Origin: Bryobacterales bacterium
Lineage (GTDB): Bacteria > Acidobacteriota > Terriglobia > Bryobacterales > UBA6623
DNA: 64,000 nucleotides
Direction of reading: 5' to 3'
NCBI GenBank assembly: GCA_026713545.1
Contig: JAPOOG010000032.1
Coordinates: forward strand, 8,379-72,378
Positions within the stretch are counted from its first letter, which is position 1. Each line of letters begins with the position of its first letter. The position numbers and the translations under genes were made by a program. Positions 19,358-60,834 of this stretch are shown in pieces. The notes below the pieces were generated by a model. The model made no database searches, was not told the origin of the DNA, and was given only the letters and a program-made list of their open reading frames with translations.

Positions 19358-22300
19358 CTAGAAGTTCCAGCGCAGGCCCATCTGCATCTCGCGGCTTTCC
19401 AGCGCGCTCGTGATCCTCCCGAAGTTACCTGACAGGATGTACATCTGCGGGGTCAGGAAGGGCGGCGTGTTCGTCGCGTTGTACATCTCCCACCGCACCT
19501 GGATCGAGTGACGTTCCGAAATGTCGATGTTCTTGAAGATCGAGAAGTCGAAGCCCGTGCGTCCCGGCTCTTCGAGGATGCTGCGCCCCGTGTCGCCGTA
19601 GAGGCCCTTGCCCAGCAGGATCCGGCTCTCGGGAGTGGCGAGCATGAAGGCGCTCGTGTCGAACCAGCGGTCCAGAGTGCGCGCGCCGCCCGAAAGGTTG
19701 CCGTCACCGATTCGGAAGGGGCGCCGGGTGCAGTTCGGGCACCCGTCTCCGGGCGTCGGGTCGACTCTCGACTGGTGCGGGTGAACGGGCAGCCCCGTGG
19801 CCAGCAGGAGAGTGCCATTGACCTGCCATCCGTCGAGGATGTGCTTGGCGGGGCCGGTCAGGTTCTTGGCGAAGGGCAGCTCCCACAGGAACGCGGTCGT
19901 CGCGCGGTGGGTGATGTCGAAATCGCCCCGGCCGCGCTCGGCCGTTCGGCGGTCGTGCGGGTTGTTCGGCCGCTGCGCCCCGCAGCAGGCGCGGAAATCG
20001 AACATCGCCTTCGCCCAGGTGTAGGTCTGCAGGAAGGTGAGTCCGCCGCTGAAGCGCCTCTCCAGCTTGGTCAGCAGGCCATGGTAGCTGCCCGAGGCCG
20101 AGCTGTCGTGAACCTCGATGCTCCCGAACCCGGCCCAGCGCCGAGTCGGGTTGGCGGTGCCGATCGTGTTCGGCAGATACGCGTTGTACTCCGCCGGGAG
20201 GTCGAAGTGGTCCGACTTCGAACCGCTGTAGCCGATTTCGGCAACGAGGTCCCACGGCAGGGACTTCTGGATGTTGATGTTCCACTGATGGACGACACCC
20301 ACCGTTTCTTCGACTTGCGCAGCTCGGATGCGGGCGAGAAAGTTCTCGCTGCTGGCCCGGTCGGCGGTCCCCATCGTGATGATCGGTCTGCGCGGCAGGG
20401 CGGCCTCCTGGATGTTCGCCGTCCCCGGCGGGTTGGCCGCCAGGTGCGGGACGAAGTTGTTGATCATGTTGACGTTGTAGAAGATCCCGTAGCCGGTGCG
20501 GATCACGAAGTCCGTCCCGCCGGTGGGCCTCCAGGCGATCCCGAAACGCGGCGCCCAGTTGTTCTTGCTCACCACGTTCAGGGGAACCCGCGCCGCGCCC
20601 GGCGCCGGGAACAACTGGCCCGAAGCCATGTCGAAGTTCCGCGACTCGCCGCGGTCATCCACGAACGGGGAGTTGTACTCCCAGCGGAGGCCGAGGTTCA
20701 GGGTCAGGTTCGGCGTGACCTTCCACTCGTCCTGGATGTAGGGGTGCAGGCGCCAGTACTCGAAGTCCGGGTACGTGCCGGCGTTGGGCTTGCCCGGAAT
20801 GTTGCCCAGCGTTACCCGTTGCGGATGGTCGAGCAGGAAGTCCGACCAGCCGTGGCCCGAGTGGATGCCGTTGAAGCTGAAGCTGCCGTTGGCGAACTGG
20901 ATCGTGCGCCGGGAGGTTCGGACGAGATTGTATTCCAGGCCGGCCTTGATGCTGTGGTCTCCCTTGATGAACGAGACGCTCTGGAAAATGGAGCGCGACT
21001 CGTCCCAGATCTGGTTGACGTCGGAGGCGCCGATGCCGCAGCAACCGGTCACGCTGATGCTGACGATGCGTGCGTCGTGCGGGTCCTCGGTCTGGCCCGG
21101 GATGCCCAACTCCGTCAGGTTGTTCCATCCGCTGTCGGTGAAACCCGTCCGGCGGAAGTAGAGGTCGCGGTTGTACGAAGCCCGGATTTCGTAGAGCGAC
21201 GTGTTGGAGAGGAAGTGGGTCCATGTCATCGTGGCGTTCTGCTGCTTCTTCGGGTTGAAGAACGTGAAGCGCGGGTCGACGGAAGCCAGGACATTGATGC
21301 TGGCCGGTTGAATCCTCTGGATGCCGTAGCGGCCGAAGATCTTGTTCTTGTCGTTGACGTTCCAGTCGCTCCTCAGGTAGAACTGGTCGTCGTCCAGGTC
21401 GTTCTTCGTGGTGCCCGAGAAGTTGTTCCTGCCGTCGAACTGCGGGTTGCCGAAGTTCGGCTGCGGCCAGAAGGGAATCACCCTTTTCGAGACGGACGAG
21501 ATTCGGCTTGATGGAATGACGTGGTTCGGGAAGGCCCCGCAAGTCGCTGCATCCGCCGGATCCGTGCAGGTGGCGATATCCAGGACCGGACTGCTGGCGA
21601 AGAAAGGCTCGCTCAGATCGCCGTTGCGCATGAGCTGCGTCGGATACGTGCCGAAGCCCTGATTGCTGCGCCGTTCGCTGAGGCTCTCCAGGTTGGCCGT
21701 GAAGAACAGCCGGTTCGTGATGATCGGGCCGCTGATCACGCCGCCGTAGGTGTTGCGCGTCAGTGGCCGCTTCGGAAGATTGGGATTCTCGAAGAAGTTG
21801 CGGGCGTCGAGCTCCTCGGCGCGGAAGAAGTGGAACAGCGTGCCGTGGAATTCGTTCGTGCCGGGCCGGATCGAGGTGATGATCTGCGCGCCCGACTGGG
21901 TCCCGTACTCGGCGTTGTACCAGCCCGCTTCGACGCGGAACTCCTGAATCGCCTCGACCGAGGGCCGCATCCGGACCATGCCGTGGATGCCGGTGCGGAG
22001 CGGAGCGCCGTCGAGAATGATGTTGTTGTTGTGCATCTTCTGGCCTAGCGCCGCGATGCCGTAGCCCGGCCCGAAGCCCGACGTCGTCACGCTGCTGCGC
22101 GGCCCGCGGCTCATGCCGGGTGCGAGCAGCGCCAGCCGGAACAGATTGCGGTCGCCCGGAATCGGCAGCTCGCGAATCTTGGATTCGTCGATGACCGTGC
22201 TGATCGTCGTGTCGTCCGTCTGGACCGACACCGCGTCGGCCTGCACCGTGATCTGCTCGGTGACGGCGCCGATCTGCAGCGTCAGGTTCTGGCGGCGGAC

Positions 22301-22660
22301 CAGGTCGACCTCGAGCCGCACGTCGGTCGCGACGGCGCGGCTGAAGCCTTCCATCGTGGCCGCCACTTCGTAGAGGCCGATGTCCAGCGCAGTGACCGCA
22401 TAGTCGCCGCGCTCGTTGGTCTCGACCGTCCGCTCCTCCTGCGTGCCTACGTTCGTGACGGCAACGCTGGCGCCGGGAATCGCGGCGCCGGATTCGTCGG
22501 TTACCGTTCCAATGATGCTGGAACTGGTGCTTTGCGCAAATGCGGTGCCCGCGCCAAGGGACATCGCCAGAGCCAAGGTAATAACGACAAAGGCGTCATT
22601 CAGCCTCCCCGCTTTCGAAAAAGCCGGGGTATGCCAACAAGAACTTCTCTTCTCGTACAT
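19358..22660 (-). CDS. TonB-dependent outer-membrane receptor with N-terminal carboxypeptidase-regulatory-like domain (1100 aa)
   Basis: 'GTVTDESGAAIPGASVAVTNVGTQEERTVETNERGDYAV' (CarbopepD_reg-like). Long beta-barrel-type sequence ending in '...MQMGLRWNF' (aromatic C-terminus). Confidence 0.9.
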   Translation of the reverse strand: MYEKRSSCWHTPAFSKAGRLNDAFVVITLALAMSLGAGTAFAQSTSSSIIGTVTDESGAAIPGASVAVTNVGTQEERTVETNERGDYAVTALDIGLYEVAATMEGFSRAVATDVRLEVDLVRRQNLTLQIGAVTEQITVQADAVSVQTDDTTISTVIDESKIRELPIPGDRNLFRLALLAPGMSRGPRSSVTTSGFGPGYGIAALGQKMHNNNIILDGAPLRTGIHGMVRMRPSVEAIQEFRVEAGWYNAEYGTQSGAQIITSIRPGTNEFHGTLFHFFRAEELDARNFFENPNLPKRPLTRNTYGGVISGPIITNRLFFTANLESLSERRSNQGFGTYPTQLMRNGDLSEPFFASSPVLDIATCTDPADAATCGAFPNHVIPSSRISSVSKRVIPFWPQPNFGNPQFDGRNNFSGTTKNDLDDDQFYLRSDWNVNDKNKIFGRYGIQRIQPASINVLASVDPRFTFFNPKKQQNATMTWTHFLSNTSLYEIRASYNRDLYFRRTGFTDSGWNNLTELGIPGQTEDPHDARIVSISVTGCCGIGASDVNQIWDESRSIFQSVSFIKGDHSIKAGLEYNLVRTSRRTIQFANGSFSFNGIHSGHGWSDFLLDHPQRVTLGNIPGKPNAGTYPDFEYWRLHPYIQDEWKVTPNLTLNLGLRWEYNSPFVDDRGESRNFDMASGQLFPAPGAARVPLNVVSKNNWAPRFGIAWRPTGGTDFVIRTGYGIFYNVNMINNFVPHLAANPPGTANIQEAALPRRPIITMGTADRASSENFLARIRAAQVEETVGVVHQWNINIQKSLPWDLVAEIGYSGSKSDHFDLPAEYNAYLPNTIGTANPTRRWAGFGSIEVHDSSASGSYHGLLTKLERRFSGGLTFLQTYTWAKAMFDFRACCGAQRPNNPHDRRTAERGRGDFDITHRATTAFLWELPFAKNLTGPAKHILDGWQVNGTLLLATGLPVHPHQSRVDPTPGDGCPNCTRRPFRIGDGNLSGGARTLDRWFDTSAFMLATPESRILLGKGLYGDTGRSILEEPGRTGFDFSIFKNIDISERHSIQVRWEMYNATNTPPFLTPQMYILSGNFGRITSALESREMQMGLRWNF

Positions 22661-23283
22661 TCAACTGCTCCCATGTTCGTTAAGTCAGTGCCGACGGGCC
22701 GGGCAGGTTGAAACCTGCTTCGCGCCTCCCAGGCGCTGTCGGGATCGGGGCTGCCTACACGGAGACGTGTCTGCATCGCCCAAGAGAATAGCAATTCCCA
22801 GACCGTTACAGAAGGTCTCGAAAGTCGGTTTCAAGCTTTTTCCTGGGGGGGAATCACCGCCGCAAGACGGCGGCAGGTTCCGTGCCCGCGTCATGGCCTT
22901 GCCGTAAAACCCTTGTTTGGTAGCCTTTGAGCGATCTTCGTGCTCCGTCTCGGCGGCCGGCGGCCCTTCACGGCTGATGCTGATGGGGCGGCATCCGTTC
23001 AGCATGCAGAACGAAATATGTTCGTACGGTTCGGTCGGAGCATGACACAAGTGATGAGGTCAGTGGCGAGACCGGGCACCACGAACCGGAGGTGATTCCG
23101 CCTGACGGATCGGAGCGCCTTCAAACTATGAGAAGACGGATGCCGCCAGGATTGGACGGCTCACTGGAGTCTGGAAGTGATGCCGAACATGGCGTCTCCA
23201 AGGCCACACACGCACTCCCAAAGAGTTTCTGAGAAGCCGCGTTGATCTTCGGGTCCCTACAAGACAAATCTCTTGATGTCCCG

Positions 23284-23750
23284 CTATGGTCTTCGCTTTC
23301 GATACTGAACCCCTTCGATTCCCTTGAAGTCTGCGTCCTGCGTCCACAGTTCCGCACCGTATTGGCGCGCGGTCGCGAGAATGACACTGTCGGCCAGGGG
23401 CAGCTTCAGTTCCACGCTGAGCCGCGCCGCGTTCACGGCAATCGCCGCTCCCAAGTCCACGACGGTTCCCTGCTGCAGGACCGCCGCCGCGTGAAGCGCC
23501 GCGCTCTCGTCGCGTTGCTGGAGCACTCGCTTGAAAACTTCGAAGAGAATCAGTGTGGAGACTACAAGCGTCTCGGTGTCCTCAATAAGCTTCGCAAAGA
23601 AGGAGGCGTTCGGACCATCGACGAAATATTCTGACCCGAAACATCCTCCTGATCAAGCGGCGTTGACACCGGTCCGGATGTTTCCCGCTTGTATGATCAG
23701 CAAGTGGGCGGGGGAAAAACCAGCCAGGCGCTGGAATCGACGACATTCAT
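23284..23750 (-). pseudogene. vapC: vapC (PIN-domain toxin) split by an 89-bp element
   Basis: The 5' piece 'MNVVDSSAWL' (23750-23721) runs into the element and hits a stop. The 3' piece 'EYFVDGPNASFFAKLIEDTETLVVSTLILFEVFKRV...WTQDADF' (23631-23284) has no start codon of its own. Deleting 23632-23720 gives one continuous PIN-like ORF. Confidence 0.8.
23632..23720. mobile_element. 85-89 bp hairpin element, copy 1 (inside vapC)
   Basis: Shares '...CCGAAACATCCTCCTGATCAAGCGGCGTTGACACCGGTCCGGATGTTTCC...GGGGGAAAAAC' with the copies at 23870-23957 and 27685-27775. Has a 9-bp inverted repeat GAAACATCC/GGATGTTTC. Confidence 0.8.
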
Positions 23751-24041
23751 GCCCGGTCCGCCTCTCGTTCGACGCTCGCGTCGATTCCTTTCAGGAAGCC
23801 CTTCATTTCCCGGACCGGGTGCACCGGAATCAACTCGATGCGGCCACCATAGGCGATTGCTTGGACCTTCTGGTCCGAAATATTCTCCTGATCAAGCGGC
23901 ATTGACAACGCTCAGCATATTCTCGCTCTAATGAACCGCGCACCGGCGGAGGAAAAACTGGCCCGGCAGGAGGCCGAGCCGGACACGGATCTCCTTCGGA
24001 ATCACCACCTGGCACTTGGGAGAAATCGTAACGGTTTCCAC
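23747..24041 (-). pseudogene. vapB: vapB-type (AbrB/SpoVT/MazE-fold) antitoxin split by an 88-bp element
   Basis: The 5' piece '(M)ETVTISPKCQVVIPKEIRVRLGLLPGQ' (GTG at 24041) runs into the element and stops. The 3' piece is 'KVQAIAYGGRIELIPVHPVREMKGFLKGIDASVEREADRA', and its stop overlaps the vapC ATG (ATGA). Confidence 0.75.
23870..23957. mobile_element. 85-89 bp hairpin element, copy 2 (inside vapB)
   Basis: Same family and same orientation as copy 1. The insertion is bracketed by CTGG...CTGG. The stem carries a paired change (C-G to T-A) relative to copies 1 and 3. Confidence 0.75.
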
Positions 24042-24257
24042 GCGGCTTCCATCGATATACCTGTTGTAATACCGATATTGTATCGATTAGCGATCACTCA
24101 TGTCACGCGTCCGCGGCTTGTGGATGGGACCCGTTCAAGCTGCCGGGAAACGCTGTCCGGCCGCGTTTGCTGACGGCTTGGCTTTCGACCGAAGCAATGC
24201 GGCCGCTCGTCGGGCTGTACACTAAGGTCGGAATTAGTCAGCTTCGGGAGAAGACGC

Positions 24258-25571
24258 ATGCAAGTGAATCGCAGGGAATGGCTGTCGGGCGGTTTGGGCG
24301 CGGTTTCAACGGCGGCGTGGGCAGGCTGCGGCGCCGGTTCGCAGACGCAGGGCGGCGCGCTGGCGCCCGTGGTCTCGGGGGGCGTTGTCGATTGGGAGGC
24401 GGTTCGCGCCCGTTTCCCGCGCGCGGTCAACGAGACCTACTTCAATTGCGCCGCGCAGCATCCCCTGGGAGTCCATACCGTCCGGGGCTTCGAGCGCTAC
24501 ATCGACTTCATGCACAATGGCCCTGGCGAGGGCCGCGAGGACTTTTGGGAAACCGGCTATCGCGAGATGAAGCCGGCGTTCGCGCGCCTGATCAATGCCA
24601 AGCCGGAAGAGATTGCCTTCTGTGCGGGAACCACGGTCGGCGAGAACCTCATCGTCAACGGCATGGACCTGAGCAACGCCAACGTGGTCACCAACGATCT
24701 GCACTACACGGCGTCGCTGGCGAACTATCTCGCGCGGCGCGACAAACATGGGTTGGACGTTCGCATCGTCAAGCACCGCGATTGGGAAATCGACATCGCC
24801 GACATGGAGAAGGCGGTGGACCGCAATACCCGGCTGATCTCGGTTTCGTTCGTGTCGTCGGTGAACGGCCACCTCGAGGACCTGAAGAAACTCGGCGACC
24901 TGGCTCATGCTCACGGCGCTTGGCTGTTCGCCGACATCATTCAGGGCTGTGGCGCGACGCCGCTCGACGTGCGCGCAATGGGTGTCGATTTTGCCTCGTG
25001 CGGGATGTACAAGTGGCTCCAGGGCGAACACGGCTTCGGGTTCCTGTACGTCAAGGAAGACCTGCAGGGCACGGCCGTCAAGGGGACACAGTTCACAGGC
25101 AGTCCTGGCCTCAACTACGAGCCCTGGACCGCCTCGCCCGACCCCGCCAAGCCCGAGTTCATCTCGCGTCCTCGGGAGGGCATCGGGCAGTTCGAGTGCA
25201 GCACGCCGGCGGCGATCAACTACGCCGGTCAGCTCGAATCGTTCCGCTTCATCGAAGAGATCGGCGTCGACAAGATTCGGGCGCACGCTCGCGAGGTGAC
25301 CGCCCGGCTGCAGAAGGAACTGCCTCCGCTCGGCTTCACCGCCATCACGCCCGACGGCACCGAATCCGGCATCCGAACCTTCCTGCACCCCGATACCGAT
25401 TCACTCAAGGCCAAGATCAACCGCGCCAACGAAGAGGGCCGCGCCAATATCTCGATCGGCGGCCCCAACTCGGGACTCACCGTGGGACGCGGCGGCAACC
25501 AGGTGCGATTCTCGGTTTCCGTCTACAACAACCACTCGGATGTCGACAAGGTGCTGGAAGTCTTGTCCTGA
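24258..25571 (+). CDS. Aminotransferase class-V-fold PLP-dependent enzyme, Tat signal + lipobox (paralog 1 of 4)
   Basis: 'MQVNRREWLSGGLGAVSTAAWAGCG'. PLP-lysine-type motif 'CGMYKWLQGEHGFGF'. Collinear similarity to the three following genes. Confidence 0.85.
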   Translation: MQVNRREWLSGGLGAVSTAAWAGCGAGSQTQGGALAPVVSGGVVDWEAVRARFPRAVNETYFNCAAQHPLGVHTVRGFERYIDFMHNGPGEGREDFWETGYREMKPAFARLINAKPEEIAFCAGTTVGENLIVNGMDLSNANVVTNDLHYTASLANYLARRDKHGLDVRIVKHRDWEIDIADMEKAVDRNTRLISVSFVSSVNGHLEDLKKLGDLAHAHGAWLFADIIQGCGATPLDVRAMGVDFASCGMYKWLQGEHGFGFLYVKEDLQGTAVKGTQFTGSPGLNYEPWTASPDPAKPEFISRPREGIGQFECSTPAAINYAGQLESFRFIEEIGVDKIRAHAREVTARLQKELPPLGFTAITPDGTESGIRTFLHPDTDSLKAKINRANEEGRANISIGGPNSGLTVGRGGNQVRFSVSVYNNHSDVDKVLEVLS

Positions 25572-25938
25572 CGGGGCGGGATGAAACCCCGCTCGGCGCC
25601 GAGAACGGCCCGCGCAGCACCGTGAAAGGCGTTGCGCCCGGCTGACAAGCCGCGGCCAGGGAGCCTATGGCGCCTGTTCGACCAAGGAGCAACGCAGTTC
25701 AGCCGGGATGCATCGCCGCTTGAATGCAGCAGAGCTCGTGCCGCGGGCTGTTGGCTTTCAGGTCTTCGCCAGCAGCCGCTTTGCGAAGCCGCCCTCCTGG
25801 GAGTGCTCGAGTGCCCTCTGGGCGCTTGCCCGCATCCCCAGCCCGAACGGCGGCTCCAACAAGAGCCGCCCCGAGCCCGGCAACCCGTTCTCCACGAAAC
25901 ACGAGACACGAGACACTGTTTTTTTGTTGCCTCTTGGT

Positions 25939-25963
25939 ACTGAAGCCCTTCAGTCTTTTTTTC
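25939..25963 (+). terminator. Terminator-like hairpin + T-run carried on a repeat module
   Basis: ACTGAAG-CCC-CTTCAGT followed by CTTTTTTT. The same module occurs inverted at 54541-54566. Confidence 0.45.
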
Positions 25964-26150
25964 CCGCCCCGGTCGGCATAGCATGAGCACAGAGAGGCTA
26001 ACGAACGACCTGCCGTCGGCGCGGCGCTCGCCTCTGGCGGCTGCCCCCCACGACGGCAACACGGCTTTCCCCGCCGTGGATGCGCAAGGGTCGCGCCACC
26101 GGAAACTGCCGTCCGGGCCACTGCGCCAGCCGGCAAGTCACCGTTCTTCA

Positions 26151-26206
26151 GTTCACGATTGTTCACCATTGTTCGCCATTGTTCGCCATTGTTCGCCATT
26201 GTTCAC
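26151..26206. repeat. 10-bp tandem repeat, about 5.6 units (GTTCRCSATT)
   Basis: GTTCACGATT GTTCACCATT GTTCGCCATT GTTCGCCATT GTTCGCCATT GTTCAC, read directly from the sequence. Confidence 0.9.
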
Positions 26207-26445
26207 TAAAAAAATATTGCCCCTGCGCCACTGTCGTTGCCCCGTCCGCCGTTCTCGGTCGGCCTTACGACGAGCCTCGCCACCGGGCAGCTCCCGCTGC
26301 GGCGAACACAAAATGAAGCCATGCCGAGAAAAGGGAACATTCCAGCCTGCATTGACTGGAGTCGTGGACACTTTGCACCGGGAGGCTTAGAGTAGAGGTA
26401 CGCTGGAGGGCCGTCTGTTGCGGCCTTTCCGGGAAAGGGGAGTTC

Positions 26446-27687
26446 ATGCCTATCAATCGACGCCAGTTCCTCGGTGCGGCGGGCGCCGCCGCGGCCGCGG
26501 CCCACGCGGCGTGCGAAAGCCAGGGGGGCGCTTCCCCCACGCTTTCCGATATCGCTTCGATCCGAGAGCGGTACCCGCGCGTGCTGCGGCAGGCGTACCT
26601 CGACACGGCGGCGCACTGCCCGCTGAGCACACATACCCGCGAGGGGATGCAAAAGTACATGGACTTCCACATGTACGGCGGCGGGGAAGGTCGCGGCGAG
26701 TATGCCGGTGAGGCGATGCGTGCCGTCAAGCCGCAGTTCGCGCGCATGATCGGCGCGAAGCCTTCGGAGATCGCCTTCGTCCAGAACACGAAAGCGGGTG
26801 AGGACATTGTGGTGAACGGCCTGGACATCCAGGCCGCGGGCGGCAACGTCGTCACGAACGACCTGCACTACGCCGGCTCGATCCACAGCTTCCTCGGCCG
26901 CAAGAAAGCCGGCATGGATGTTCGGATCATCAAGTCGAAGGATTGGGTCACCGACCTTGACGCCATGGAAGCCGCGATCGACAAGAAGACCAGGCTCGTC
27001 GCGATCACATTGGTCTCGAACGTCAACGGACACGTCGAAGACGCCAAGGCCCTCACCGGGATGGCGCACGCGAACGGCGGGTATGTCTACGCCGACATCA
27101 TTCAGGCAGCGGGCGCCATCCCGATCGACGTCAAGGCGCTCGGTCTCGATTTCGCTGCTTGCTCGAATTACAAGTGGCTCCAGGGTTGCCGCGGCTCAGG
27201 CTTTCTGTACGTCCGCGAAGAACTGCAAGGCACGGCGGTGAAAGACCTGCTCTTCCCCGGCTATGTCCGCTTCAACTACCCGCCGTGGGTGGACCCCGCC
27301 GACGGTAACGAAGATCCGATGCCCTTTTCCCCGCCCAGGAACGCCGGCCGCTATCAGCCGGGCAATACGGCCCGCGAGGGCTACTGCGGCCAGTATGAGT
27401 CGTTCAAGGTGATGGAAGCGATCGGCGTCGAAAACATGCTGGCCCATACGATGGCCCTGGTCGACCGCATCCGCAAGGAGCTTCCGGAGAGCAGGTATCG
27501 GTGCATCACGCCCGAGGGCGCTCGCAGTCCGATCCTCGTTTTCATCCCGGCGGACTACGAGGGAACGCAAGCCAGGCTGAAACAGGCGAACATTCAGGCG
27601 ACCACGACGGGGAACCGTTTGCGAATCTCGCCCAACATCTACAACAACCAGGAAGATGTCGACAAGCTGCTCGACGCCTTGGTCTGA
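26446..27687 (+). CDS. Aminotransferase class-V-fold PLP-dependent enzyme, Tat signal + lipobox (paralog 2 of 4)
   Basis: 'MPINRRQFLGAAGAAAAAAHAACES' and 'CSNYKWLQGCRGSGF'. Confidence 0.85.
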   Translation: MPINRRQFLGAAGAAAAAAHAACESQGGASPTLSDIASIRERYPRVLRQAYLDTAAHCPLSTHTREGMQKYMDFHMYGGGEGRGEYAGEAMRAVKPQFARMIGAKPSEIAFVQNTKAGEDIVVNGLDIQAAGGNVVTNDLHYAGSIHSFLGRKKAGMDVRIIKSKDWVTDLDAMEAAIDKKTRLVAITLVSNVNGHVEDAKALTGMAHANGGYVYADIIQAAGAIPIDVKALGLDFAACSNYKWLQGCRGSGFLYVREELQGTAVKDLLFPGYVRFNYPPWVDPADGNEDPMPFSPPRNAGRYQPGNTAREGYCGQYESFKVMEAIGVENMLAHTMALVDRIRKELPESRYRCITPEGARSPILVFIPADYEGTQARLKQANIQATTTGNRLRISPNIYNNQEDVDKLLDALV

Positions 27688-27775
27688 CCGGAAACATTCT
27701 CTTGATCAAGCGGCATTGACAGCGGTCCGGATGTTTCCTGCTGGTATGATCCGTGTGCGGGCGGAGAAAAAAATA
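27685..27775. repeat. 85-89 bp hairpin element, copy 3 (intergenic, directly upstream of paralog 3)
   Basis: 'TGACCGGAAACATTCTCTTGATCAAGCGGCATTGACAGCGGTCCGGATGTTTCCTGCTGGTATGATCC...GGCGGAGAAAAAA'. It starts at the stop codon of paralog 2 and ends about 12 nt before the AGGAG RBS of paralog 3. Confidence 0.8.
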
Positions 27776-27787
27776 AAAGGAGCGGCC

Positions 27788-29056
27788 ATGAACTTCAATC
27801 GAAGATCGTTTCTTGCGGGAAGCGTCGCGGCGTCCGTGGCGTCGCAGCTCGGGTGCGGTCAGGAAAGTGATGCCGCGCCGGTGCTCGGAGACCTCGACAG
27901 CGCGCGCCGCGACTTCCCGCGGTCCGCGAACGGCGTGTACATGAATCACGCCTCGCAGCACACCCTCAGCGTACAATCGGCTCGGGCAATCCAGCGGTAC
28001 GCCGACTACCTTGCGAACGAATGCTCGCGAGCCGGTTGGTACGAGGTGTCGGACGATGCAAAGGCGCTTGGCGGCGCATACAAGCGCGAAGTCAAGGAGA
28101 TGTTCGCCAGGCTGATCAATGCCCGGCCGTCTGAGATCGCCTTCTGCCTGAGCACGACCGTCGGCGAGAACATGGTCGTGAACGGCATGGGCATTCAGGA
28201 GTCCGGCGGCAATGTCGTAACGAACGATTTGCACTATTCGAGCTGCCTGTACAACTACAAGATGCGCCAGCAGCGTGGTCTTGACGTGCGCATCGTCAAG
28301 CACAGAGACTGGCGGCTCGACCCGGCCGACTTCGAAACCCTCATCGACGACAAGACGAAGCTTGTCGCGCTGACGCTGGTTTCGAACGTCAACGGATTGC
28401 TCGCCCCGGTGAAGGAGATCGCCGGCATCGCGCATCGCAACGGCGCTTATGTCTACGCGGACATCATCCAGGCCTGCGGAGCCGTGCCCATCGACGTACA
28501 AGCCATGGGGATCGACTTTGCCGCCTGCTCGACCTACAAGTGGCTGATGGGACTGCGCGGTTTCGCCTACCTCTACATCAAGGAGGACCTGCAGGGAACC
28601 GTCGTGCAGCCCACGCAGTTCGGAGGAGGCGTGAGCTTCAACTACGAGCCCTGGGTCGAAAATCCCGACTCCGGCAGTGGCGAGATCGTCTACCGGCCGA
28701 AGCAGATGGCTTCCCAGTACGAAGTGGGCAACGTATCGAGTGTCGGATGCGTTTGCCAACAGGAGGCTCTGAACTTCATCCACCGGGTCGGCGTGGATGA
28801 GATTCAGGCGCACGCGACTCCCCTGACCGAGTTCCTGCAAGAGGAGATGCCGAAGATCGGGTATGCTTCGATCACTCCGAGTGGCAATCGAAGCCCGATC
28901 ACGACGTTTCGCGTCCCTGATCCGAAAGAGGCCGAGCGGCGGCTCAAGGAAGCCCATATCGAGGTGACGCTGCGGTTCGGTAATCAGATGCGCGTATCGG
29001 TGTCGGTGATGAACAACCAGCAGGATGTCGAGGCTTTGGTGGCGGCGCTGGCGTAA
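27788..29056 (+). CDS. Aminotransferase class-V-fold PLP-dependent enzyme, Tat signal + lipobox (paralog 3 of 4)
   Basis: 'MNFNRRSFLAGSVAASVASQLGCGQ' and 'CSTYKWLMGLRGFAY'. AAGGAG RBS. Confidence 0.85.
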   Translation: MNFNRRSFLAGSVAASVASQLGCGQESDAAPVLGDLDSARRDFPRSANGVYMNHASQHTLSVQSARAIQRYADYLANECSRAGWYEVSDDAKALGGAYKREVKEMFARLINARPSEIAFCLSTTVGENMVVNGMGIQESGGNVVTNDLHYSSCLYNYKMRQQRGLDVRIVKHRDWRLDPADFETLIDDKTKLVALTLVSNVNGLLAPVKEIAGIAHRNGAYVYADIIQACGAVPIDVQAMGIDFAACSTYKWLMGLRGFAYLYIKEDLQGTVVQPTQFGGGVSFNYEPWVENPDSGSGEIVYRPKQMASQYEVGNVSSVGCVCQQEALNFIHRVGVDEIQAHATPLTEFLQEEMPKIGYASITPSGNRSPITTFRVPDPKEAERRLKEAHIEVTLRFGNQMRVSVSVMNNQQDVEALVAALA

Positions 29057-29092
29057 ATGAAATGCGGCCGACTCGATCGATGGAGAAACCCT

Positions 29093-30352
29093 ATGAACTT
29101 TGATCGACGCGATTTCCTGGCCGGTTCCGCCACGCTCGGCTCCGGCATGTTCTTTGGTTGCAGTGCGGCGGATTCCAAGATCGCCGACACTGCGCTCACG
29201 GCCGAAAATGCCGACTTCGCAACCGCCCGAGCTGCTTTCCCCTGGTCAACGAAGCAGGTCTGGCTGAACAACGCCGGCCGGCATCCCTGTGGTGTTCACT
29301 CCGTCAACGCGGCCCGCGGGTATCTCGACTACATCCTTGATGGTCCGGGAAACGGCGCCGGCTTCGGAGAAAAGCAGTTCCACGATGTGAAGGCGTTGTA
29401 CGGCGAGCTCATCAACGCCAAGGCGTCGGAAATCGCGCTCGTGCAAAGCACGCTGATCGGCGAGAACCTCGTCGCTCTCGGTCTGGGCCTGCACGACGGC
29501 AAGGGCAACGTCGTCACCGACGAGCTGCACTATCACGGCGGAAGCTATATCTATCGCCGCCTGCAGGACGCCGGGCTCGAATTGCGGATCATCAAGCAGA
29601 AAGACTGGCAAGTCACTCCTGAGGAGTACGAGCGGGTGATCGACAACGACACGAAGCTCGTCTCGCTAACCCTGGTTTCGAACATCAACGGGTTTCTCTA
29701 CGACTCCAAGGCCATCAGCGAGATCGCGCATGCCAACGGCGCCTACGTTTATGCCGACGTCGTCCAGGCGGCCGGCTGCGTTCCCGTGGACATGCGGGCC
29801 ATGGGGATCGACTTCTGCTCGGCTTCGACCTACAAGTGGCTGATGGGGATGCGCGGCCTGGGGTTGTTCTACGTGCGGGAAGAGCTTCAGGGCGGCGTGC
29901 TCAAGCCGGTGATGTACGGGGACAAGCAATACTCGAACTTCGAGTTCCACTACTTTCCGGGGAGCCCGCCGGGCGAGACGCCGATCAGCTATCAACCGCG
30001 CGGCGGGGCGCAAATATATGAGGTCGGCAACGTCTCGAACATCGCCGGGGCGGCGCAGCGCGAGGCGCTCAAGTACATCCTCAAGCTCGGTGTCGACAAC
30101 ATCCTCGCCCATGCCAAGCCCATGTGCGACAAGCTGATCGAGGAGTTGCCGAAACTTGGTTACCCTTGCATCACGCCGCCGGGCAGCCCCACGCCCATCA
30201 CGGCTTTTCTCGTCGAGAACCCCGAAGAAACCAGCGCCAGATTGAGAGCCGCCAAAGTCGCTGCCAAGGTCAAGTGGAAACAGATGCGTGTCTCGCCCTC
30301 CGTCTTCAACACGATGGCCGACGTGGACCAATTGCTGGATGCGTTATCCTGA
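29093..30352 (+). CDS. Aminotransferase class-V-fold PLP-dependent enzyme, Tat signal + lipobox (paralog 4 of 4)
   Basis: 'MNFDRRDFLAGSATLGSGMFFGCSA' and 'ASTYKWLMGMRGLGL'. Confidence 0.85.
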   Translation: MNFDRRDFLAGSATLGSGMFFGCSAADSKIADTALTAENADFATARAAFPWSTKQVWLNNAGRHPCGVHSVNAARGYLDYILDGPGNGAGFGEKQFHDVKALYGELINAKASEIALVQSTLIGENLVALGLGLHDGKGNVVTDELHYHGGSYIYRRLQDAGLELRIIKQKDWQVTPEEYERVIDNDTKLVSLTLVSNINGFLYDSKAISEIAHANGAYVYADVVQAAGCVPVDMRAMGIDFCSASTYKWLMGMRGLGLFYVREELQGGVLKPVMYGDKQYSNFEFHYFPGSPPGETPISYQPRGGAQIYEVGNVSNIAGAAQREALKYILKLGVDNILAHAKPMCDKLIEELPKLGYPCITPPGSPTPITAFLVENPEETSARLRAAKVAAKVKWKQMRVSPSVFNTMADVDQLLDALS

Positions 30353-30365
30353 CCGGTCGTATGAG

Positions 30366-30683
30366 CCTGTATTTCTCATCACGTGGCGAGACGAAGTGCG
30401 TGAGAGGGCCGTCAGGACGAGGCGCGAGCCGCTTGGCGCGCGCAGGCGTAGCGGCCATATTGCCTCCTTTGGCCTTCGGGTCACGAAACATGAGACACGG
30501 CCTTTACGGTTCACCGCCCGTCAGACATTTCTTTCGAGAACGAACCAGGCCCCCCGCCAGGGTTTTTCAAGAATCACGGCCTTGTACGCAAGCCGCCTTG
30601 GAGCGACAGCCGTACCGCCCGCCTGGGTTTTGGGGTCACGAATCACGCGACACGAGACACGAAACACGGCCTTTTAATGCAGG
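30366..30683. repeat. Long-form composite element B (one arm of the 177-bp element + S-core module + heptamer words)
   Basis: Starts CCTGTATTTCTCATCACGTGGCGAG...GCCGCTTGGCGCGCGCAGG (arm shared with copies A and D). Continues with the S-core 'CCGTCAGACATTTCT' at 30496-30568, then 'CACGAATCACGCGACACGAGACACGAAACACGG', and ends ...TTAATGCAGG. Fills almost the whole 361-bp intergenic gap. Confidence 0.75.
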
Positions 30684-30713
30684 TCAGGTTGTAGATACAT
30701 CCCGGGAGTCGTT

Positions 30714-43598: not shown

Positions 43599-44495
43599 CT
43601 ACGTTTTGCGGATGTCTCTGTGAGAGACCTTCACTTCGCATCCAGCGCCCGTGAGGTTGCGGCCGACCGCATCCGCGATCATCACCGAGCGATGCCGGCC
43701 CCCCGTGCAACCGAATGCAATCGTCAGGTAGCTCTTGCCCTCACGCACGTAATGGGGGACGAGATACAGCAGCAGGTCGGAAATCCGGCCGATGAACTCC
43801 CCGGTCTGCGGAAACGACCGTACGTACCGAATGACCTTCGGATGCTTGCCGGAAAGATTCTTGCAACCCGGCACATAGTGCGGGTTCGGCAGGAACCGAA
43901 CATCGAAAACCAAGTCGCTGTCGCTTGGCAAGCCGTGTTTGAAACCGAAGCTGTTCACCGTGACGAGCAGTTGCGGTCTGTCTTGAGCGCTCTGGAATCG
44001 CGTTACGATCAGACGCCTCAGATCGTGAATGTTGAACTGCGACGTATCGAGAATCAGATCCGCAAGCTTTTGAATGGATCGTAGCGCCTGCCTCTCCGCC
44101 CGGATGCTGTTGAGGACGGACGTACCCGTGCCCAGCGGGTGTGGTCGACGTGTCTCACTGAAGCGCCTTTGTAGAACGTCGTCCGCGGCTTCAAGAAACA
44201 GCAGAAACACACGATTCTGCCTCCTCAGTTCCTGAAAGATTCCGGGAAACTTCTTGAGGGCCCGGCCTTCACGAATATCGACCACCAGAGCGGCCCGGGA
44301 GATTTCCGGAGAGTGTCTACAGAGCTCGGCGAAGGTCGGGATCAAGTCAATCGGCAGATTGTCGACGGCATAGAAACCCATATCCTCAAAGACCTTCAGC
44401 ACAGAGACTTTGCCCGAGCCGCTAAGTCCGGTCAGGATGACGAGTTCGTATGCCCCGCCCGGCGCTTCCCCCGCGCTGCTTGTCTCAGCCGTCAT
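43599..44495 (-). CDS. rapZ: RNase adapter protein RapZ (P-loop NTPase, YhbJ family)
   Basis: Walker A 'GLSGSGKVSVLKVFEDMGFYAVDNLP' and C-terminal 'IAFGCTGGRHRSV'. Confidence 0.9.
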   Translation of the reverse strand: MTAETSSAGEAPGGAYELVILTGLSGSGKVSVLKVFEDMGFYAVDNLPIDLIPTFAELCRHSPEISRAALVVDIREGRALKKFPGIFQELRRQNRVFLLFLEAADDVLQRRFSETRRPHPLGTGTSVLNSIRAERQALRSIQKLADLILDTSQFNIHDLRRLIVTRFQSAQDRPQLLVTVNSFGFKHGLPSDSDLVFDVRFLPNPHYVPGCKNLSGKHPKVIRYVRSFPQTGEFIGRISDLLLYLVPHYVREGKSYLTIAFGCTGGRHRSVMIADAVGRNLTGAGCEVKVSHRDIRKT

Positions 44496-44666
44496 TTCTC
44501 ACCCACCTGACGGCAGAAGCACGCGATACGACGTTCATGACTTCGTTGCGCACGCTTACTGTGCTCAATGTTAAGGGCAAGTACACCTGCGCGTGCCAAG
44601 CCGCTCGCGCCACGTCCTGACGGCCCTTTCAGGCACCTCACCTCCCCACGTGATGAGAAAGGTCGG
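44489..44666. repeat. Degenerate copy C of the 177-bp TIR element, between hpf and rapZ, overlapping the rapZ start codon
   Basis: 'CCGTCATTTCTCACCCACCTGACGGC...GCCAAGCCGCTCGCGCCACGTCCTGACGGCCCTTTCAGGCACCTCACCTCCCCACGTGATGAGAAAGGTCGG' aligns along its length with copy D. The CAT (ATG of rapZ) at 44493-44495 lies in the left terminus. Confidence 0.7.
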
Positions 44667-53985: not shown

Positions 53986-54924
53986 GCCTCCAGTTTATCG
54001 TCGAAGCTGCTGAATTCCGTCTCCTCAGACATGGATGTCAACTCCCAGCATGGTTCATTCACCGCGAATGGACACGAACCAACACGAATGAGGGGCGTTT
54101 TCGCCGCGGAGGCGGGAGCTGTGCGCCAATTCGCGTCCACAGTAGCGGGTCCAGCCCGGAGGTCGACGGGAGCGGCGGTGAACGGCGCTCGTCGTGAGGC
54201 CGACCGCGAGCGGCGGACGGCGCGCCGGCACTGGCACAGATGCAATATTTTTTGCCGGGAAATAGTGGGCAATACCGGGAAATAGTGGGCAGGCAAGCAG
54301 TGGCTGGGCTGCGGGCGTGGCAGCCTGACCTGCATCTCTACCCGCCCGGCGTCCGAAGCACGCGAGGTAAAGGCCGTGATTCGTGTTTCGTGATTCGTGA
54401 AAAGCATAAAAGCCGTGATTCGTGTCTCGTGAAAAACCTTAAAAGCAGTGGCTAGTGAAAGCCTTGAAAGCTCTGATTCGTGACCCGCACCGACTGTGCC
54501 TCGTTGCCTCCCTGTCCTCATGCTATGCAGGCCGGGGAAGAAAAAAAAGACTGAAGGGCTTCAGTACCTAGAGGTATTAAAAAAACCGTGATTCGTGTTT
54601 CGTGATTCGTGAAAAACACTGGTGAGGCCTCGTTCGCTCCAGAAGAAATGTCTGACGGCCGTTGAACCGTAAAGGCCGTGTTGCCGTCGTGGGGGGCAGC
54701 CTCTACAGCGAGCGCCTCGCCGTTCACGGTGCTACGCGGGCCGTTCTCGGCGCCAAGCAGGATTTCACCACGGACTGCCAGCTCACCGGGGAACTTCCTA
54801 CATTGCGCCGACACTCCGCAGACATGAAGCTCGTTACCTCACCGCAGACTTCCAGCCGCGCCTGACGAAAATACCAAGCAGCTTTCACCTCGCCTGCCCT
54901 CTCGCAGCACCTATCTGCTAACTT
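53986..54924. repeat. Mosaic intergenic repeat zone 4 (inverted relative to zone 1; includes a 20-bp x2 repeat, heptamer words, the hairpin module and an S-core)
   Basis: Components are 54170-54250 (reverse complement of roughly 26200-26290), 54255-54294 (CCGGGAAATAGTGGGCA x2), 54371-54480 (GTGATTC/GTGTTTC words), 54518-54625 (reverse complement of roughly 25891-25985), the S-core at 54611-54680, and 54700-54790 (reverse complement of roughly 25585-25640). Confidence 0.8.
54541..54566 (-). terminator. Terminator-like hairpin + T-run (minus strand) on a repeat module
   Basis: The plus strand reads AAAAAAAAGACTGAAGGGCTTCAGTAC, which on the minus strand is a hairpin followed by T8. Confidence 0.4.
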
Positions 54925-60418: not shown

Positions 60419-60834
60419 TGCGGAGAAGTGTATCACGCGGGGGGTCGCAGACAGCGAATAAAGGCCGTGATTCGTGATTCGTGTCTCGTGAAAAACATTG
60501 GTGGGGGCCTGGTTCGCTCCAGAAGAAATGTCTGACGGCAGATGAACCGGAAAGGCCGTGTGTCGTGTCAAAAACCCGTGTTTCGTTTCTCTTGTCTCGT
60601 GTTTCGTGAAGCGAAAGGCGGAAAGGACGTGATGCGTGATGCGAAAAACCTTTGGGTGACGGACGTTTTTGTTCCGAGACCACGAATGGACACGAATCAA
60701 CACGAAGGGAGGGGTGTTTTATTGCGCCGGCGGTGATGCGGGCAAGCGCCCAGAGGGCACCCGCGCGCTACCAGGGCTCCACGCCTTCCACGGGATTTTT
60801 TACCACCACCACGGGCTGTTATGTCTTTGGGATA
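60419..60834. repeat. Mosaic intergenic repeat zone 6 (heptamer words, S-core, 'CACGAATGGACACGAA' module, 'ATGCGGGCAAGCGCCCAGAGGGCAC' module)
   Basis: S-core at 60490-60560. Word tracts at 60466-60490 and 60556-60660. The 60681-60790 stretch shares modules with 54060-54100 and, inverted, with 25790-25850. Confidence 0.75.

What the first reader, a model, noticed from the sequence alone, without database searches (positions are those of the whole stretch)
26151..26206. Helically phased 10-bp tandem array, with a different (20-bp x2) array at the equivalent position of the inverted sister zone
Next to the conserved module '(A)6-7TATTGC.CCTG.GCCA.TG', zone 1 carries GTTC(A/G)C(G/C)ATT x5.6, an exact 10-bp period (one helical turn). 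Next to the same module, zone 4 carries CCGGGAAATAGTGGGCA(ATA/GGC) x2 at 54255-54294.

So a second 'variable tandem cassette beside a conserved anchor' exists, independent of the heptamer slot. A 10-bp phase is typical of bent DNA or of one-face protein-binding arrays.
Basis: seen in the sequence. Interest (0 to 1): 0.55.

Follow-up and report, generated by a model that had tools for sequence, protein, structure and literature searches.

The report
Ten-base repeat inside mobile intergenic mosaic
The 10-base tandem repeat is real and is a constant internal part of a non-coding, strain-variable repeat element scattered between genes of sponge-associated acidobacteria, but it is not strongly bent DNA and its function is still unproven.

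Summary
Positions 26151-26206 hold GTTCRCSATT x5.6, and the sister array at 54255-54294 also has a 10-bp period.

I searched public genomes and metagenomes with the anchor alone. All 10 true copies, all from Bryobacterales (several traceable to marine-sponge metagenomes), carry a 10-bp-period array of 2.6-5.6 units directly 5' of the anchor.

Unit sequences differ between copies (GTTCACnATT, KCCCRSnATT, GCCCGGAATT, GC-rich GCGCGGCAT-type). C4 and A8-T9-T10 are invariant in the ATT types.

The array sits in a module with a ~95-nt left flank, then the array, a homopolymer run plus anchor, and a right flank. That module lies inside a ~0.78-kb non-coding mosaic. The mosaic also holds a terminator-like hairpin and heptamer arrays, and ends in an outward TTGACA.

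- At zone 4 the whole 778 bp is absent from the orthologous site of 95-96% identical strains, and in the window it is flanked by a 15-bp direct duplication.
- At zone 1 a 97% identical strain carries a different array variant.
- The arrays are substitution hot spots.

Wedge models predict near-background curvature for zone 1. No Rfam hit, RNA covariation or coding frame was found.

Best reading: a slippage-homogenised minisatellite in a mobile mosaic element, possibly a same-face protein-binding track (inferred only).

The parts
26151..26206 (+). Focal 10-bp tandem array, GTTCRCSATT x5.6
   Evidence: TRF gives period 10, score 84. Sequence read. The unit pattern occurs only here in the window.
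26207..26233 (+). Homopolymer A-run plus anchor (TA7TATTGCCCCTGCGCCACTG)
   Evidence: The anchor has 2 hits in the window against 0.01 expected. It is conserved in Bryobacterales MAGs and sponge metagenome contigs.
26054..26150 (+). Left-flank module (~95 nt, GCCGTGGrTGCGCAAGGGTCGC...GTCACnGyTy)
   Evidence: An nhmmer profile of the left flanks hits every array copy and nothing array-less.
26234..26356 (+). Right-flank module, ending in TGCATTGAC (outward -35-like end of the element)
   Evidence: nhmmer right-flank profile. Alignment of copies. Homology to the unique promoter region starts at 26348.
25572..26356 (+). Whole zone-1 mosaic element, inserted between two tandem aminotransferase paralogs. 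The left boundary is approximate.
   Evidence: The 80% ortholog locus L053 has only a 111-bp gap between the same two genes. Sister strain L049 carries a different mosaic at the same site.
25936..25962 (+). Conserved hairpin GGTACTGAAGCCCTTCAGTC followed by T7 (terminator-like)
   Evidence: Present upstream of the array module in 9 of the 11 distinct copies aligned (absent from L002 and L006). Too weak for the consensus terminator scan.
25893..25916 (+). Heptamer array CACGAGA x3.4 (the 'heptamer slot')
   Evidence: TRF. CACGA recurs at 7-bp spacing 17 times in the window against 0.2 in shuffles.
26365..26393 (+). Native sigma-70-like promoter TGGACA-17-TAGAGT of the downstream gene. It is not part of the element.
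   Evidence: Promoter scan. The TAGAGTAGAG box and a TGGACG -35 are kept in L053, which lacks the element.
54255..54294 (-). Sister 10-bp array (GCCCACTATT TCCCGGTATT GCCCACTATT TCCCGGC), a 20-bp super-unit x2
   Evidence: TRF gives period 10. Sequence read. The plus strand satisfies a G3N7 x4 quadruplex motif.
54229..54254 (-). A-run plus anchor of zone 4
54036..54813 (-). Whole zone-4 mosaic element (778 bp), with ends TGTCGGCG...GAGTTGACA
   Evidence: Absent from the orthologous sites L041 and L042 (ABC-F 96% and 95% identical) and from the outgroups L043 and L045.
54021..54035 (.). Right copy of the 15-bp direct duplication (TCCATGTCTGAGGAG on the minus strand)
   Evidence: blastn overlap of L041 2451-2465 with both window junctions.
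54814..54828 (.). Left copy of the 15-bp direct duplication (TTCATGTCTGCGGAG on the minus strand)
   Evidence: The sequence is single-copy (TCCATGTCTGCGGAG) at the empty site in L041 and L042.
54541..54568 (-). Zone-4 copy of the hairpin plus T8
   Evidence: Inverted repeat I3 and alignment.
60681..60710 (+). Third, weaker period-10 array (CACGAATGGA x3). It is homologous to 54053-54095 near the right end of zone 4.
   Evidence: TRF. Sequence read. CACGA occurs at 10-bp spacing.

Best explanation
The array is a 10-bp minisatellite that forms a fixed internal part of one module: left flank, then array, then homopolymer run plus anchor, then right flank. This module belongs to a family of non-coding mosaic repeat elements dispersed in the intergenic regions of a narrow clade of Bryobacterales (Acidobacteriota). 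At least some members of that clade are marine-sponge associated.

Shown:
- The module recurs at unrelated loci and in several genomes, always with a 10-bp-period array.
- The ~0.78-kb mosaic containing it is an insertion. It is absent at the orthologous site in sister strains and outgroups, and is flanked by a 15-bp target duplication.
- At another orthologous site a different array variant is present in a 97% identical strain.
- Units are homogeneous within an array but differ between arrays.
- The arrays accumulate substitutions far faster than their flanks.

Inferred:
- The array is created and homogenised by slipped-strand or unequal exchange in whole 10-bp units. The adjacent A-, C- or G-run is a mononucleotide expansion inside the last unit (CGGC-A-TT).
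- The module is spread or swapped by transposition-like insertion and by recombination between copies.

Most likely role (inference, about 35-40%): a track of same-face binding sites, one per helical turn, with core C-R-S-n-A-T-T plus 3 free bases. The binding partner would be an unidentified DNA-binding protein that organises or mobilises the element, or insulates the neighbouring promoter. Changes in copy number would then move the flanks apart by whole helical turns. The alternative, that the array has no function at all, is almost as likely.
For: Recurrence:
- Anchor-only scans gave 5 hits in 3 Bryobacterales MAGs and 6 true hits in metagenomes.
- All carry 10-bp arrays of 2.6-5.6 units.
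- TRF independently calls period 10 for the GC-rich variants in L002, L006 and L049.
- Flank profiles never hit an array-less copy.

Insertion:
- Window 54036-54813 is missing from L041 and L042. The 15-bp sequence TCCATGTCTGCGGAG is single-copy there and duplicated at both junctions in the window.
- Outgroups L043 and L045 also lack the module.
- Zone 1 splits a paralog operon that is contiguous in L053.
- L049 has a GC-rich array plus a G-run at the same site.

Concerted evolution: within-array unit identity is 0.77-1.0 for the 12 ATT-type arrays (0.42-0.63 for the two GC-rich arrays, whose phasing is uncertain), against 0.58 between array consensuses.

Hot spot: between the window and L032, 14 of 15 differences in 800 bp fall in tandem or homopolymer tracts (Fisher p=9e-12). 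Three fall in the 10-mer array against 1 in 686 bp of non-tract sequence (p=0.0015).

Constraint-like pattern:
- C4, A8 and T10 are invariant and T9 is kept in 40 of 41 units.
- Within-array polymorphism is confined to positions 1 and 5-7 (chi-square p=3e-7).
- Flank-to-flank spacing is 61, 69, 69, 71 (x5), 81 and 92 bp.

Orientation: 7 of 9 loci point to a co-oriented gene start 240-550 bp downstream, and full-length copies end in TTGAC.

Non-coding: array lengths differ by 10 bp (not a multiple of 3), no conserved ORF was found, and there were no Rfam hits.
Against: - Only one clean filled-versus-empty pair with a target duplication was found.
- The element has no terminal inverted repeat beyond TGTC/GACA, and no transposase, recombinase or reverse transcriptase is linked to it. 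The mobilisation mechanism is therefore unknown, and recombination or template switching could equally produce the pattern.
- No binding protein is identified.
- Invariant unit positions could simply be inherited from a common ancestral unit and kept by concerted evolution.
- Copy number is identical in the three assemblies of zone 1 and in the three paralogous or orthologous L002, L006 and L016 arrays, so turnover of unit number is not fast.
- The sample is small (about 16 arrays), was ascertained through the anchor, and is partly from short-read assemblies that break in these repeats.
- The orientation bias (7 of 9) is not significant (one-sided binomial p about 0.09, my calculation).
Confidence: 0.55

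Rival explanations
1. Neutral by-product. The array is a functionless minisatellite carried passively by a selfish or neutral mosaic repeat. The 10-bp period and the conserved unit positions are inherited from one ancestral unit and maintained only by slippage-driven concerted evolution.
For: - All arrays have homologous flanks, so they share ancestry.
- Units are homogenised within arrays.
- The arrays are mutational hot spots.
- Homopolymer A-, C- or G-runs grow out of the last unit.
- Unit sequence can turn over completely (TT, CC or GG at positions 2-3) without loss of the array.
- Heptamer arrays of similar behaviour lie nearby.
Against: - None of the anchor-ascertained copies has decayed to 1 unit or fewer (0 of 10).
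- Four unit positions never vary across arrays that have otherwise diverged, while within-array variation is restricted to positions 1 and 5-7.
- Flank spacing stays near n x 10 + 1 bp.
Confidence: 0.3
2. Intrinsically curved or anisotropically bendable DNA. The phased ATT/AAT steps plus the A-run bend the helix upstream of the neighbouring promoter, acting like an UP element or wrapping DNA, and so modulate transcription or supercoiling.
For: - The array/A-run junction lies in the 98.9-100th percentile of predicted curvature in the 64-kb window. Zone 4 is the window maximum in two of three models.
- CCC-type arrays reach about half the bend of canonical phased A-tracts.
- W-rich trinucleotides alternate with GC-rich spacers every 10 bp.
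Against: - The focal GTTC-type array alone is predicted at 16-28 degrees per 60 bp, against 14-18 for random sequence and 64-80 for phased A-tracts.
- The GC-rich variant is straighter than random, so curvature is not conserved across array types.
- The arrays lie about 160-255 bp upstream of the nearest -35-like hexamers, too far for an UP element.
- The wedge parameters were entered from memory of published tables, so the values are indicative only.
Confidence: 0.1
3. RNA-level element. The module is transcribed as an sRNA or 5' leader, and the repeats are protein- or RNA-binding motifs in the transcript.
For: Most copies point toward a downstream gene. The repeated short motifs are superficially like sponge RNAs.
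Against: - No Rfam family matches at gathering threshold or at E<=10 with any relevance.
- RNAalifold on 10 copies gives -5.8 kcal/mol with an unfavourable covariation term (+0.77) and essentially no compensatory pairs.
- The predicted promoter of the zone-1 gene lies downstream of the element and is native.
- Two copies point at the 3' end of a convergent gene.
Confidence: 0.05

Closest known systems
BOX elements of Streptococcus pneumoniae and BIMEs (bacterial interspersed mosaic elements) of enterobacteria
   Same: Both are dispersed, non-coding, intergenic mosaics built from a small set of conserved modules. One module is tandemly repeated a variable number of times (boxB; REP units in BIMEs). 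Both are often next to terminators or promoters, and BIMEs are documented protein-binding sites for IHF and gyrase (PMC2817692, PMC3333891 abstracts; the BOX details are from my own knowledge).
   Different: The variable unit here is only 10 bp (boxB is about 45 bp, REP about 35 bp) and is not palindromic. No REP-like hairpin doublets or RAYT transposase are evident. The unit sequence itself differs between copies.
Cyanobacterial STRR heptanucleotide tandem repeats and nested small dispersed repeats (Nostoc/Anabaena)
   Same: Both involve short tandem arrays in intergenic regions, interleaved with small mobile-looking modules, strain-variable and of unknown function. The neighbouring CACGAnn heptamer arrays here are the direct analogue. 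Heptamer repeats have been reported to influence gene regulation in Nostoc (bioRxiv 10.1101/2022.06.06.494920, title and abstract) and to be over-represented in bacteria (PMC4692102 abstract).
   Different: The phylum differs. The focal array has a 10-bp rather than a 7-bp unit and is always tied to one specific flank and anchor context. No sequence similarity was tested or expected.
Contiguous direct-repeat operators and centromeres bound cooperatively by small ribbon-helix-helix proteins (omega heptads WATCACW, MetJ 8-bp metboxes, ParR parC 10-11-bp iterons)
   Same: Both are head-to-tail arrays of 3-10 short units with a conserved core and free positions. A period near one helical turn places the sites on one face. 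The neighbouring heptamers (AATCACG) resemble omega heptads. This comparison is recalled from memory and was not tested.
   Different: Those arrays overlap promoters or lie next to the gene for the binding protein. Here no cognate gene is known, the arrays are 160-255 bp from the nearest -35-like hexamer, and they are multi-copy on the chromosome.
MITEs and putative mobile promoters
   Same: All are small (<1 kb), non-coding and multi-copy, with presence/absence polymorphism and a target duplication. This element has an outward -35-like hexamer at one end and a bias toward pointing at a downstream gene.
   Different: There is no terminal inverted repeat and the duplication is unusually long (15 bp). 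Internal module order differs between copies. In zone 1 the downstream gene keeps its own native promoter.

Membership tests
Intrinsically bent DNA (phased A-tracts) | A/T tracts of at least 4 bp repeated in phase with the helix (about 10-10.5 bp) | tested here: not met
   Units carry only ATT/AAT, with one A4-7 run at the 3' end of the array.
Intrinsically bent DNA (phased A-tracts) | Predicted or measured curvature well above bulk DNA, in all members | tested here: not met
   Zone-1 array 16-28 degrees per 60 bp; random 14-18; A-tract controls 64-80; CCC types 32-46; GC-rich type 7-14.
Plasmid-type iteron origin | Iterons next to a rep gene, an AT-rich unwinding region and DnaA boxes | tested here: not met
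   Neighbouring genes are aminotransferase paralogs and ABC-F. The AT-rich stretch is only about 13 bp. There is no similarity to 72,556 plasmids. The element is multi-copy and dispersed.
Phase-variable simple-sequence contingency locus | Repeat number differs between closely related strains or reads | tested here: not met
   The same 5.6 units occur in the window, L012 and L032. The same 3.6 units occur in L002, L006 and L016. Read-level data are not available.
Phase-variable simple-sequence contingency locus | Repeat lies within an ORF or in the -35/-10 spacer | tested here: not met
   The array ends 159 bp upstream of the predicted -35 of the zone-1 gene.
MITE | Terminal inverted repeats | tested here: not met
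   The ends TGTCGGCG... and ...GAGTTGACA share only TGTC/GACA.
MITE | Target-site duplication and empty orthologous sites | tested here: met
   15-bp duplication; empty site in L041 and L042.
MITE | Short, non-coding, multi-copy | tested here: met
   About 0.78 kb; no conserved ORF; copies in at least 3 genomes and several metagenome contigs.
BIME/BOX-type mosaic intergenic repeats | Intergenic mosaics of recurring modules with a tandemly variable module | tested here: met
   Modules are shared in varied combinations among the window zones and loci. Arrays have 2.6-5.6 units.
BIME/BOX-type mosaic intergenic repeats | REP palindromes with an associated RAYT, or boxA/boxB/boxC sequence homology | not tested
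   No REP-like doublets were seen by eye. No genome-wide search for RAYT was possible.
Known structured RNA (Rfam) | Covariance-model hit or covariation-supported structure | tested here: not met
   No gathering-threshold hit. Only chance-level hits at E<=10. RNAalifold covariation term +0.77.
RHH-type cooperative operator or centromere arrays | Contiguous direct repeats with a conserved core | tested here: met
   Core C4...A8T9T10 is invariant, and variation is confined to positions 1 and 5-7 within arrays.
RHH-type cooperative operator or centromere arrays | A cognate DNA-binding protein that binds the repeats | not testable with these tools
   No candidate was found among the 10 window ORFs scanned, mostly the smaller ones. 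Testing needs biochemistry.
G-quadruplex-forming tandem repeats | At least four G3 tracts with loops of 7 nt or less | tested here: inconclusive
   Met by zone 4 and the other CCC-type arrays, but not by the focal zone-1 array.

The most novel reading that the evidence does not exclude
The 7-bp (CACGAnn) and 10-bp (CRSnATTnnn) arrays may be two registers of one recognition system. An unidentified small DNA-binding protein of these Bryobacterales would polymerise on them, and this would underlie the assembly, swapping or mobilisation of a new class of TIR-less mosaic elements. Their features (15-bp target duplication, homopolymer 'tails' growing out of the last repeat unit, module shuffling between 97% identical strains) fit no described bacterial transposition mechanism. 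They would point to a template-switching or reverse-transcription-like process.
Probability: 0.12. Interest if true: 0.8.

Novelty: new variant of a known kind. Interest (0 to 1): 0.42.

Why it matters
Dispersed intergenic repeats shape bacterial transcription units, supercoiling and genome plasticity, yet almost nothing is described for Acidobacteria or for sponge symbionts.

This work defines a concrete repeat module that can be searched for: flank profiles, an anchor, and a 10-bp array whose period is kept while its sequence turns over. It shows that the surrounding ~0.8-kb mosaic is gained, lost or swapped between strains that are 95-97% identical at the protein level. It also shows that the mosaic can split an operon and bring in a terminator-like hairpin and an outward -35.

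If the arrays prove to be protein-binding tracks, they would identify a new chromosome-organising or element-mobilising factor. If they prove neutral, they are still useful high-resolution strain markers for these uncultivated symbionts, and a warning about a recurrent cause of contig breaks in their assemblies.

Tried and rejected
- **Known RNA.** Rfam at gathering and permissive thresholds, and RNAalifold covariation on 10 copies, found nothing.
- **Coding or repeat peptide.** The 10-bp unit is not a multiple of 3, copy-number differences shift the frame, and the only shared ORF fragment in the left-end module is 10 residues long.
- **Curved DNA as the common property.** Rejected after wedge-model calculations with controls.
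- **Sigma-70, sigma-54 or UP-element promoter inside the array or anchor.** The consensus scan finds only the native promoter downstream. Inspection by eye of both strands gave wrong spacings (GG-to-GC of 9 rather than 12 for sigma-54; CTGACA-15-TATTTT at best).
- **DnaA-box array.** TTGTTCAC in GTTC-type units resembles TTGTNCACA, but the CCC, GGAATT and GC-rich types do not, so this is not a conserved property. MraZ-type TGGGN-N5 repeats fail in the same way, because only CCC-type units fit on the reverse strand. Both comparisons are from memory.
- **LexA GTTC-N7-GTTC box.** The spacing here is N6, and the other unit types lack GTTC.
- **Plasmid or phage origin.** No blastn match of the 785-bp element in the plasmid or phage collections. 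The two viral-contig anchor hits have only weak profile scores (E = 5e-4 and 3e-3), confined to the anchor segment that was searched for.
- **Inverted repeat CACTG...CAGTG bracketing the array.** It is not conserved. It is absent in zone 1 and shows no compensatory change.
- **Contingency locus.** Copy number is stable across the available assemblies.
- **Source contig.** A look-up of the exact window protein found no record.
- **Literature.** Searches found no description of these repeats.

Full report
**1. The observation**

Tandem Repeats Finder reports 26151-26206 as a period-10 array with 5.6 copies, 93% matches and score 84. This is the second-highest score among the 28 rows for the window, after the period-32 array at 54382-54450 (score 89). 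It reports 54255-54284 as period 10 with 3.0 copies.

- Reading the sequence gives GTTCACGATT GTTCACCATT GTTCGCCATT x3 GTTCAC, then A7-TATTGCCCCTGCGCCACTG.
- On the minus strand of zone 4 it gives GCCCACTATT TCCCGGTATT GCCCACTATT TCCCGGC, then A6-TATTGCATCTGTGCCAGTG.
- The unit pattern and the anchor are far above chance: 5 hits against 0.03 expected, and 2 hits against 0.01 expected.
- The two zones are inverted sister regions sharing several modules in order.
- Both arrays are reproduced base for base in independent assemblies (L012 and L019).

**2.

I scanned one genome per species (GTDB set) and the JGI metagenome set with the anchor only, so nothing about the array was selected for.

- Five of 8 genome hits lie in three Bryobacterales MAGs. 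The other three are low-GC chance hits without the flanks.
- Six of 32 metagenome hits are real. Three of these are on contigs of MKWU01, the Aplysina aerophoba sponge metagenome (PMC5649159).
- This gives 10 distinct copies: 9 loci plus one strain ortholog.
- Every one has a 10-bp-period array of 2.6-5.6 units directly 5' of the A-run.

Further arrays sit beside diverged anchors in the same loci:

- L021 790-819;
- L006 6175-6214 and L016 4841-4870, followed by C- or G-runs;
- GC-rich arrays (consensus TGGCGCGGCA, period 10, sometimes 20/21) in L002, L006 and L049.

Profiles of the ~95-nt left flank and of the right flank hit all array copies and no array-less copy. The module is absent from more distant relatives whose orthologs are 80-83% identical, and from the plasmid and phage collections.

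**3. Anatomy of the units**

In the 41 units of the 12 ATT-type arrays:

- C4, A8 and T10 are invariant, and T9 is kept in 40 of 41;
- position 1 is mostly G;
- positions 2-3 are TT or CC, uniform within an array (the separate GC-rich arrays have G or C there);
- position 5 is A or G, position 6 is C or G, and position 7 is free.

Within arrays, polymorphism occurs only at positions 1 and 5-7 (27 array-position cases; chi-square against uniform p=3e-7).

Within-array unit identity is 0.77-1.0 for the 12 ATT-type arrays, against 0.58 between array consensuses over all 14 arrays. This indicates concerted evolution.

The 3'-most unit is usually nnnCGGC. The following homopolymer run looks like an expansion inside that unit: CGGC-A(n)-T-ATT, CGGC-C(n), or CGG-G(n).

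The distance between the flanks is 61, 69, 69, 71 (five copies), 81 and 92 bp. That is mostly n x 10 + 1-2 bp.

**4. What it is embedded in**

Alignment of all copies shows a larger composite:

- heptamer array(s) of the form CACGAnn;
- a conserved hairpin, GGTACTGAAGCCCTTCAGTC followed by T7-8;
- the block CCGCCCCGGCCTGCATAGCATGAGGACAGGGAGGC;
- variable heptamer slots;
- the left flank, the 10-mer array, and the run plus anchor;
- a right flank with a long hairpin in most copies;
- the block GGAACGTTCTGGATTGCGTTGAC.

In zone 4 the whole segment 54036-54813 (778 bp) is missing from the orthologous intergenic region of two strains whose ABC-F protein is 96% and 95% identical (L041 and L042).

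- The sequence TCCATGTCTGCGGAG is single-copy there. In the window it occurs at both junctions, with one mismatch each.
- The two outgroup orthologs also lack the element, so this is an insertion.
- The insertion ends are TGTCGGCG... and ...GAGTTGACA, with no inverted repeat beyond 4 bp.

In zone 1 the element separates the first and second of four tandem class-V aminotransferase paralogs.

- These two genes are 111 bp apart in an 80% ortholog locus (L053).
- L053 retains the TGGAC(A/G)...TAGAGTAGAG promoter, so that promoter (26365-26393) is native rather than element-borne.
- A 97% identical strain (L049) has, at the same site, a different mosaic with a GC-rich 10-mer array, a G-run and a truncated anchor (TAAGCCAGTGTCC).

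Another strain (L032) keeps the same array with the same copy number. However, 14 of the 15 differences in 800 bp fall in the heptamer array, the T-runs and the 10-mer array. Three fall in the 10-mer array, and none in the 505 bp downstream.

**5. Functional tests that could be run**

- *Curvature.* I used three dinucleotide wedge models, with parameter tables entered from memory of the published values, and calibrated them with phased and unphased A-tract controls.
  - The zone-1 array is barely above random DNA, CCC-type arrays are moderate, and the GC-rich type is straight.
  - The window-level peak at 26204-26206 and 54259-54264 is due to the A-run junction.
  - Static bending is therefore not the conserved property.
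- *RNA.* No Rfam family matches, and there is no covariation.
- *Coding.* Excluded by the 10-bp indels and the lack of a conserved frame.
- *Promoter.* No consensus promoter lies in or next to the array.
- *Orientation.* Seven of nine loci point at a co-oriented gene start 240-550 bp downstream. L007 and L021 do not. This is suggestive but not significant.
- *Quadruplex.* CCC-type arrays satisfy a G3N7 x4 motif on the complementary strand. The focal array does not.
- *Genomic context.* The window is ordinary chromosome (alternative complex III, cytochromes, RapZ, HPF, ABC transporters). No transposase appears among the ORFs scanned.

**6. Interpretation**

Shown:

- a dispersed, non-coding, insertion-polymorphic mosaic element family in a narrow Bryobacterales clade;
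- a 10-bp minisatellite as an obligatory part of one of its modules;
- concerted evolution within arrays and elevated substitution in them.

Inferred:

- the arrays are generated and homogenised by slippage in whole units;
- modules are exchanged between copies by recombination or template switching.

Function remains open. The invariant C...ATT core, the restriction of variation to three or four positions, the absence of decayed copies and the 10-bp-quantised spacing favour a same-face binding track for an unknown protein. These same features can also be explained by shared ancestry plus concerted evolution. I therefore rate the binding-track role at about 35-40% and a neutral minisatellite at about 30%.

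The core CACGA is shared by the heptamers and by the 5' units of the GTTC/CCC decamers. It recurs at 7-bp spacing 17 times and at 10-bp spacing 3 times in the window (0.2 and 0.25 in shuffles). This hints at a common recognition or mutational logic.

**7. Comparison with known systems**

The nearest known kinds are:

- mosaic intergenic repeats with a tandemly variable module (BOX, BIME);
- cyanobacterial STRR heptamer arrays with nested small repeats;
- MITEs and mobile promoters.

As a mechanistic analogy only, contiguous direct-repeat operators or centromeres of ribbon-helix-helix proteins also resemble it.

The element fails the MITE test for terminal inverted repeats and the contingency-locus tests. 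It passes the tests for target duplication, multi-copy status, non-coding status and mosaic structure. I found no description of it in the searchable literature, but that search is limited.

**8. Verdict**

The feature is real and recurrent, and is a new variant of a known kind. Interest is moderate.

Noticed in passing
window 5796-5823, 25893-25916, 30637-30674, 54375-54450, 54587-54612, 60466-60491, 60577-60643, 61764-61803 (variant GTGGTTA at 58082-58112): Heptamer tandem arrays (CACGAnn / CGTGnnn) occur in most long intergenic regions, each bounded by CACGGCCTTT-like motifs. CACGA recurs at exactly 7 bp 17 times, against 0.2 in shuffles. In the related loci only periods 7 and 10 (or 20) occur in the mosaics.
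   Followed up: partly
window 10856-11038 and 55472-55654 (also 30362-30490, 44572-44685, 58483-58595, 61872-62015): This is another dispersed module family. One pair of copies is a 183-nt inverted repeat at 93% identity, 44 kb apart. One copy lies upstream of a TonB-dependent receptor gene. It contains GAGGGCCGTCAGGACGAGGCGCGAGCCGCTTGGCGCGCGCAGGCGTA.
   Followed up: no
window 23618-23719, 23868-23921, 27671-27772: A 54-102-nt direct repeat (TTCTGACCnGAAACATyCTCyTGATCAAGCGGCrTTGACA...CCGGATGTT), with an internal TTGACA and an AACATCC/GGATGTT dyad, lies upstream of aminotransferase paralogs. It looks like a shared operator or promoter and is unrelated to the array module.
   Followed up: no
window 24258-30352: Four tandem paralogs of a class-V aminotransferase / cysteine-desulfurase-like gene. 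The second (26446) has a twin-arginine-like RRQFLG N-terminus. The zone-1 element splits gene 1 from genes 2-4, which are contiguous in related genomes.
   Followed up: partly
window 54255-54294 (+ strand); L006 6175-6221; L007 2548-2584: CCC-type 10-mer arrays give four or more G3 tracts with 7-nt loops on the complementary strand, a canonical G-quadruplex motif. The GTTC-type array of zone 1 cannot form one.
   Followed up: partly
window 60681-60710 and 54053-54095: A weak third period-10 array (CACGAATGGA x3) is homologous to a stretch near the right end of the zone-4 element. Here the heptamer core CACGAA is spaced at 10 bp instead of 7.
   Followed up: partly
L041 about 1500-1700; L049 and L050 contig ends; L010 contig end: Short-read assemblies of related strains have N-gaps or contig ends exactly inside these mosaics. 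Homopolymer C- or G-runs differ between L010 and L016. The repeats are a systematic cause of assembly breaks in these MAGs.
   Followed up: no
window about 20000-32000: Cumulative GC skew rises to a maximum near 22-25 kb and then falls steadily to the end of the window. This coincides with a switch from minus-strand to plus-strand genes. Whether it marks a replication landmark was not examined.
   Followed up: no
window 43599-47800: An lptB-like ABC ATPase, a ribosome hibernation factor (HPF) and rapZ lie in the order typical of the rpoN neighbourhood. The lower-GC gap at 45300-46990 was not annotated by my ORF filter.
   Followed up: no
window 23284-23526 (-): An 80-aa PIN-domain ORF (VapC-like toxin fragment) lies just upstream of the aminotransferase cluster.
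   Followed up: no
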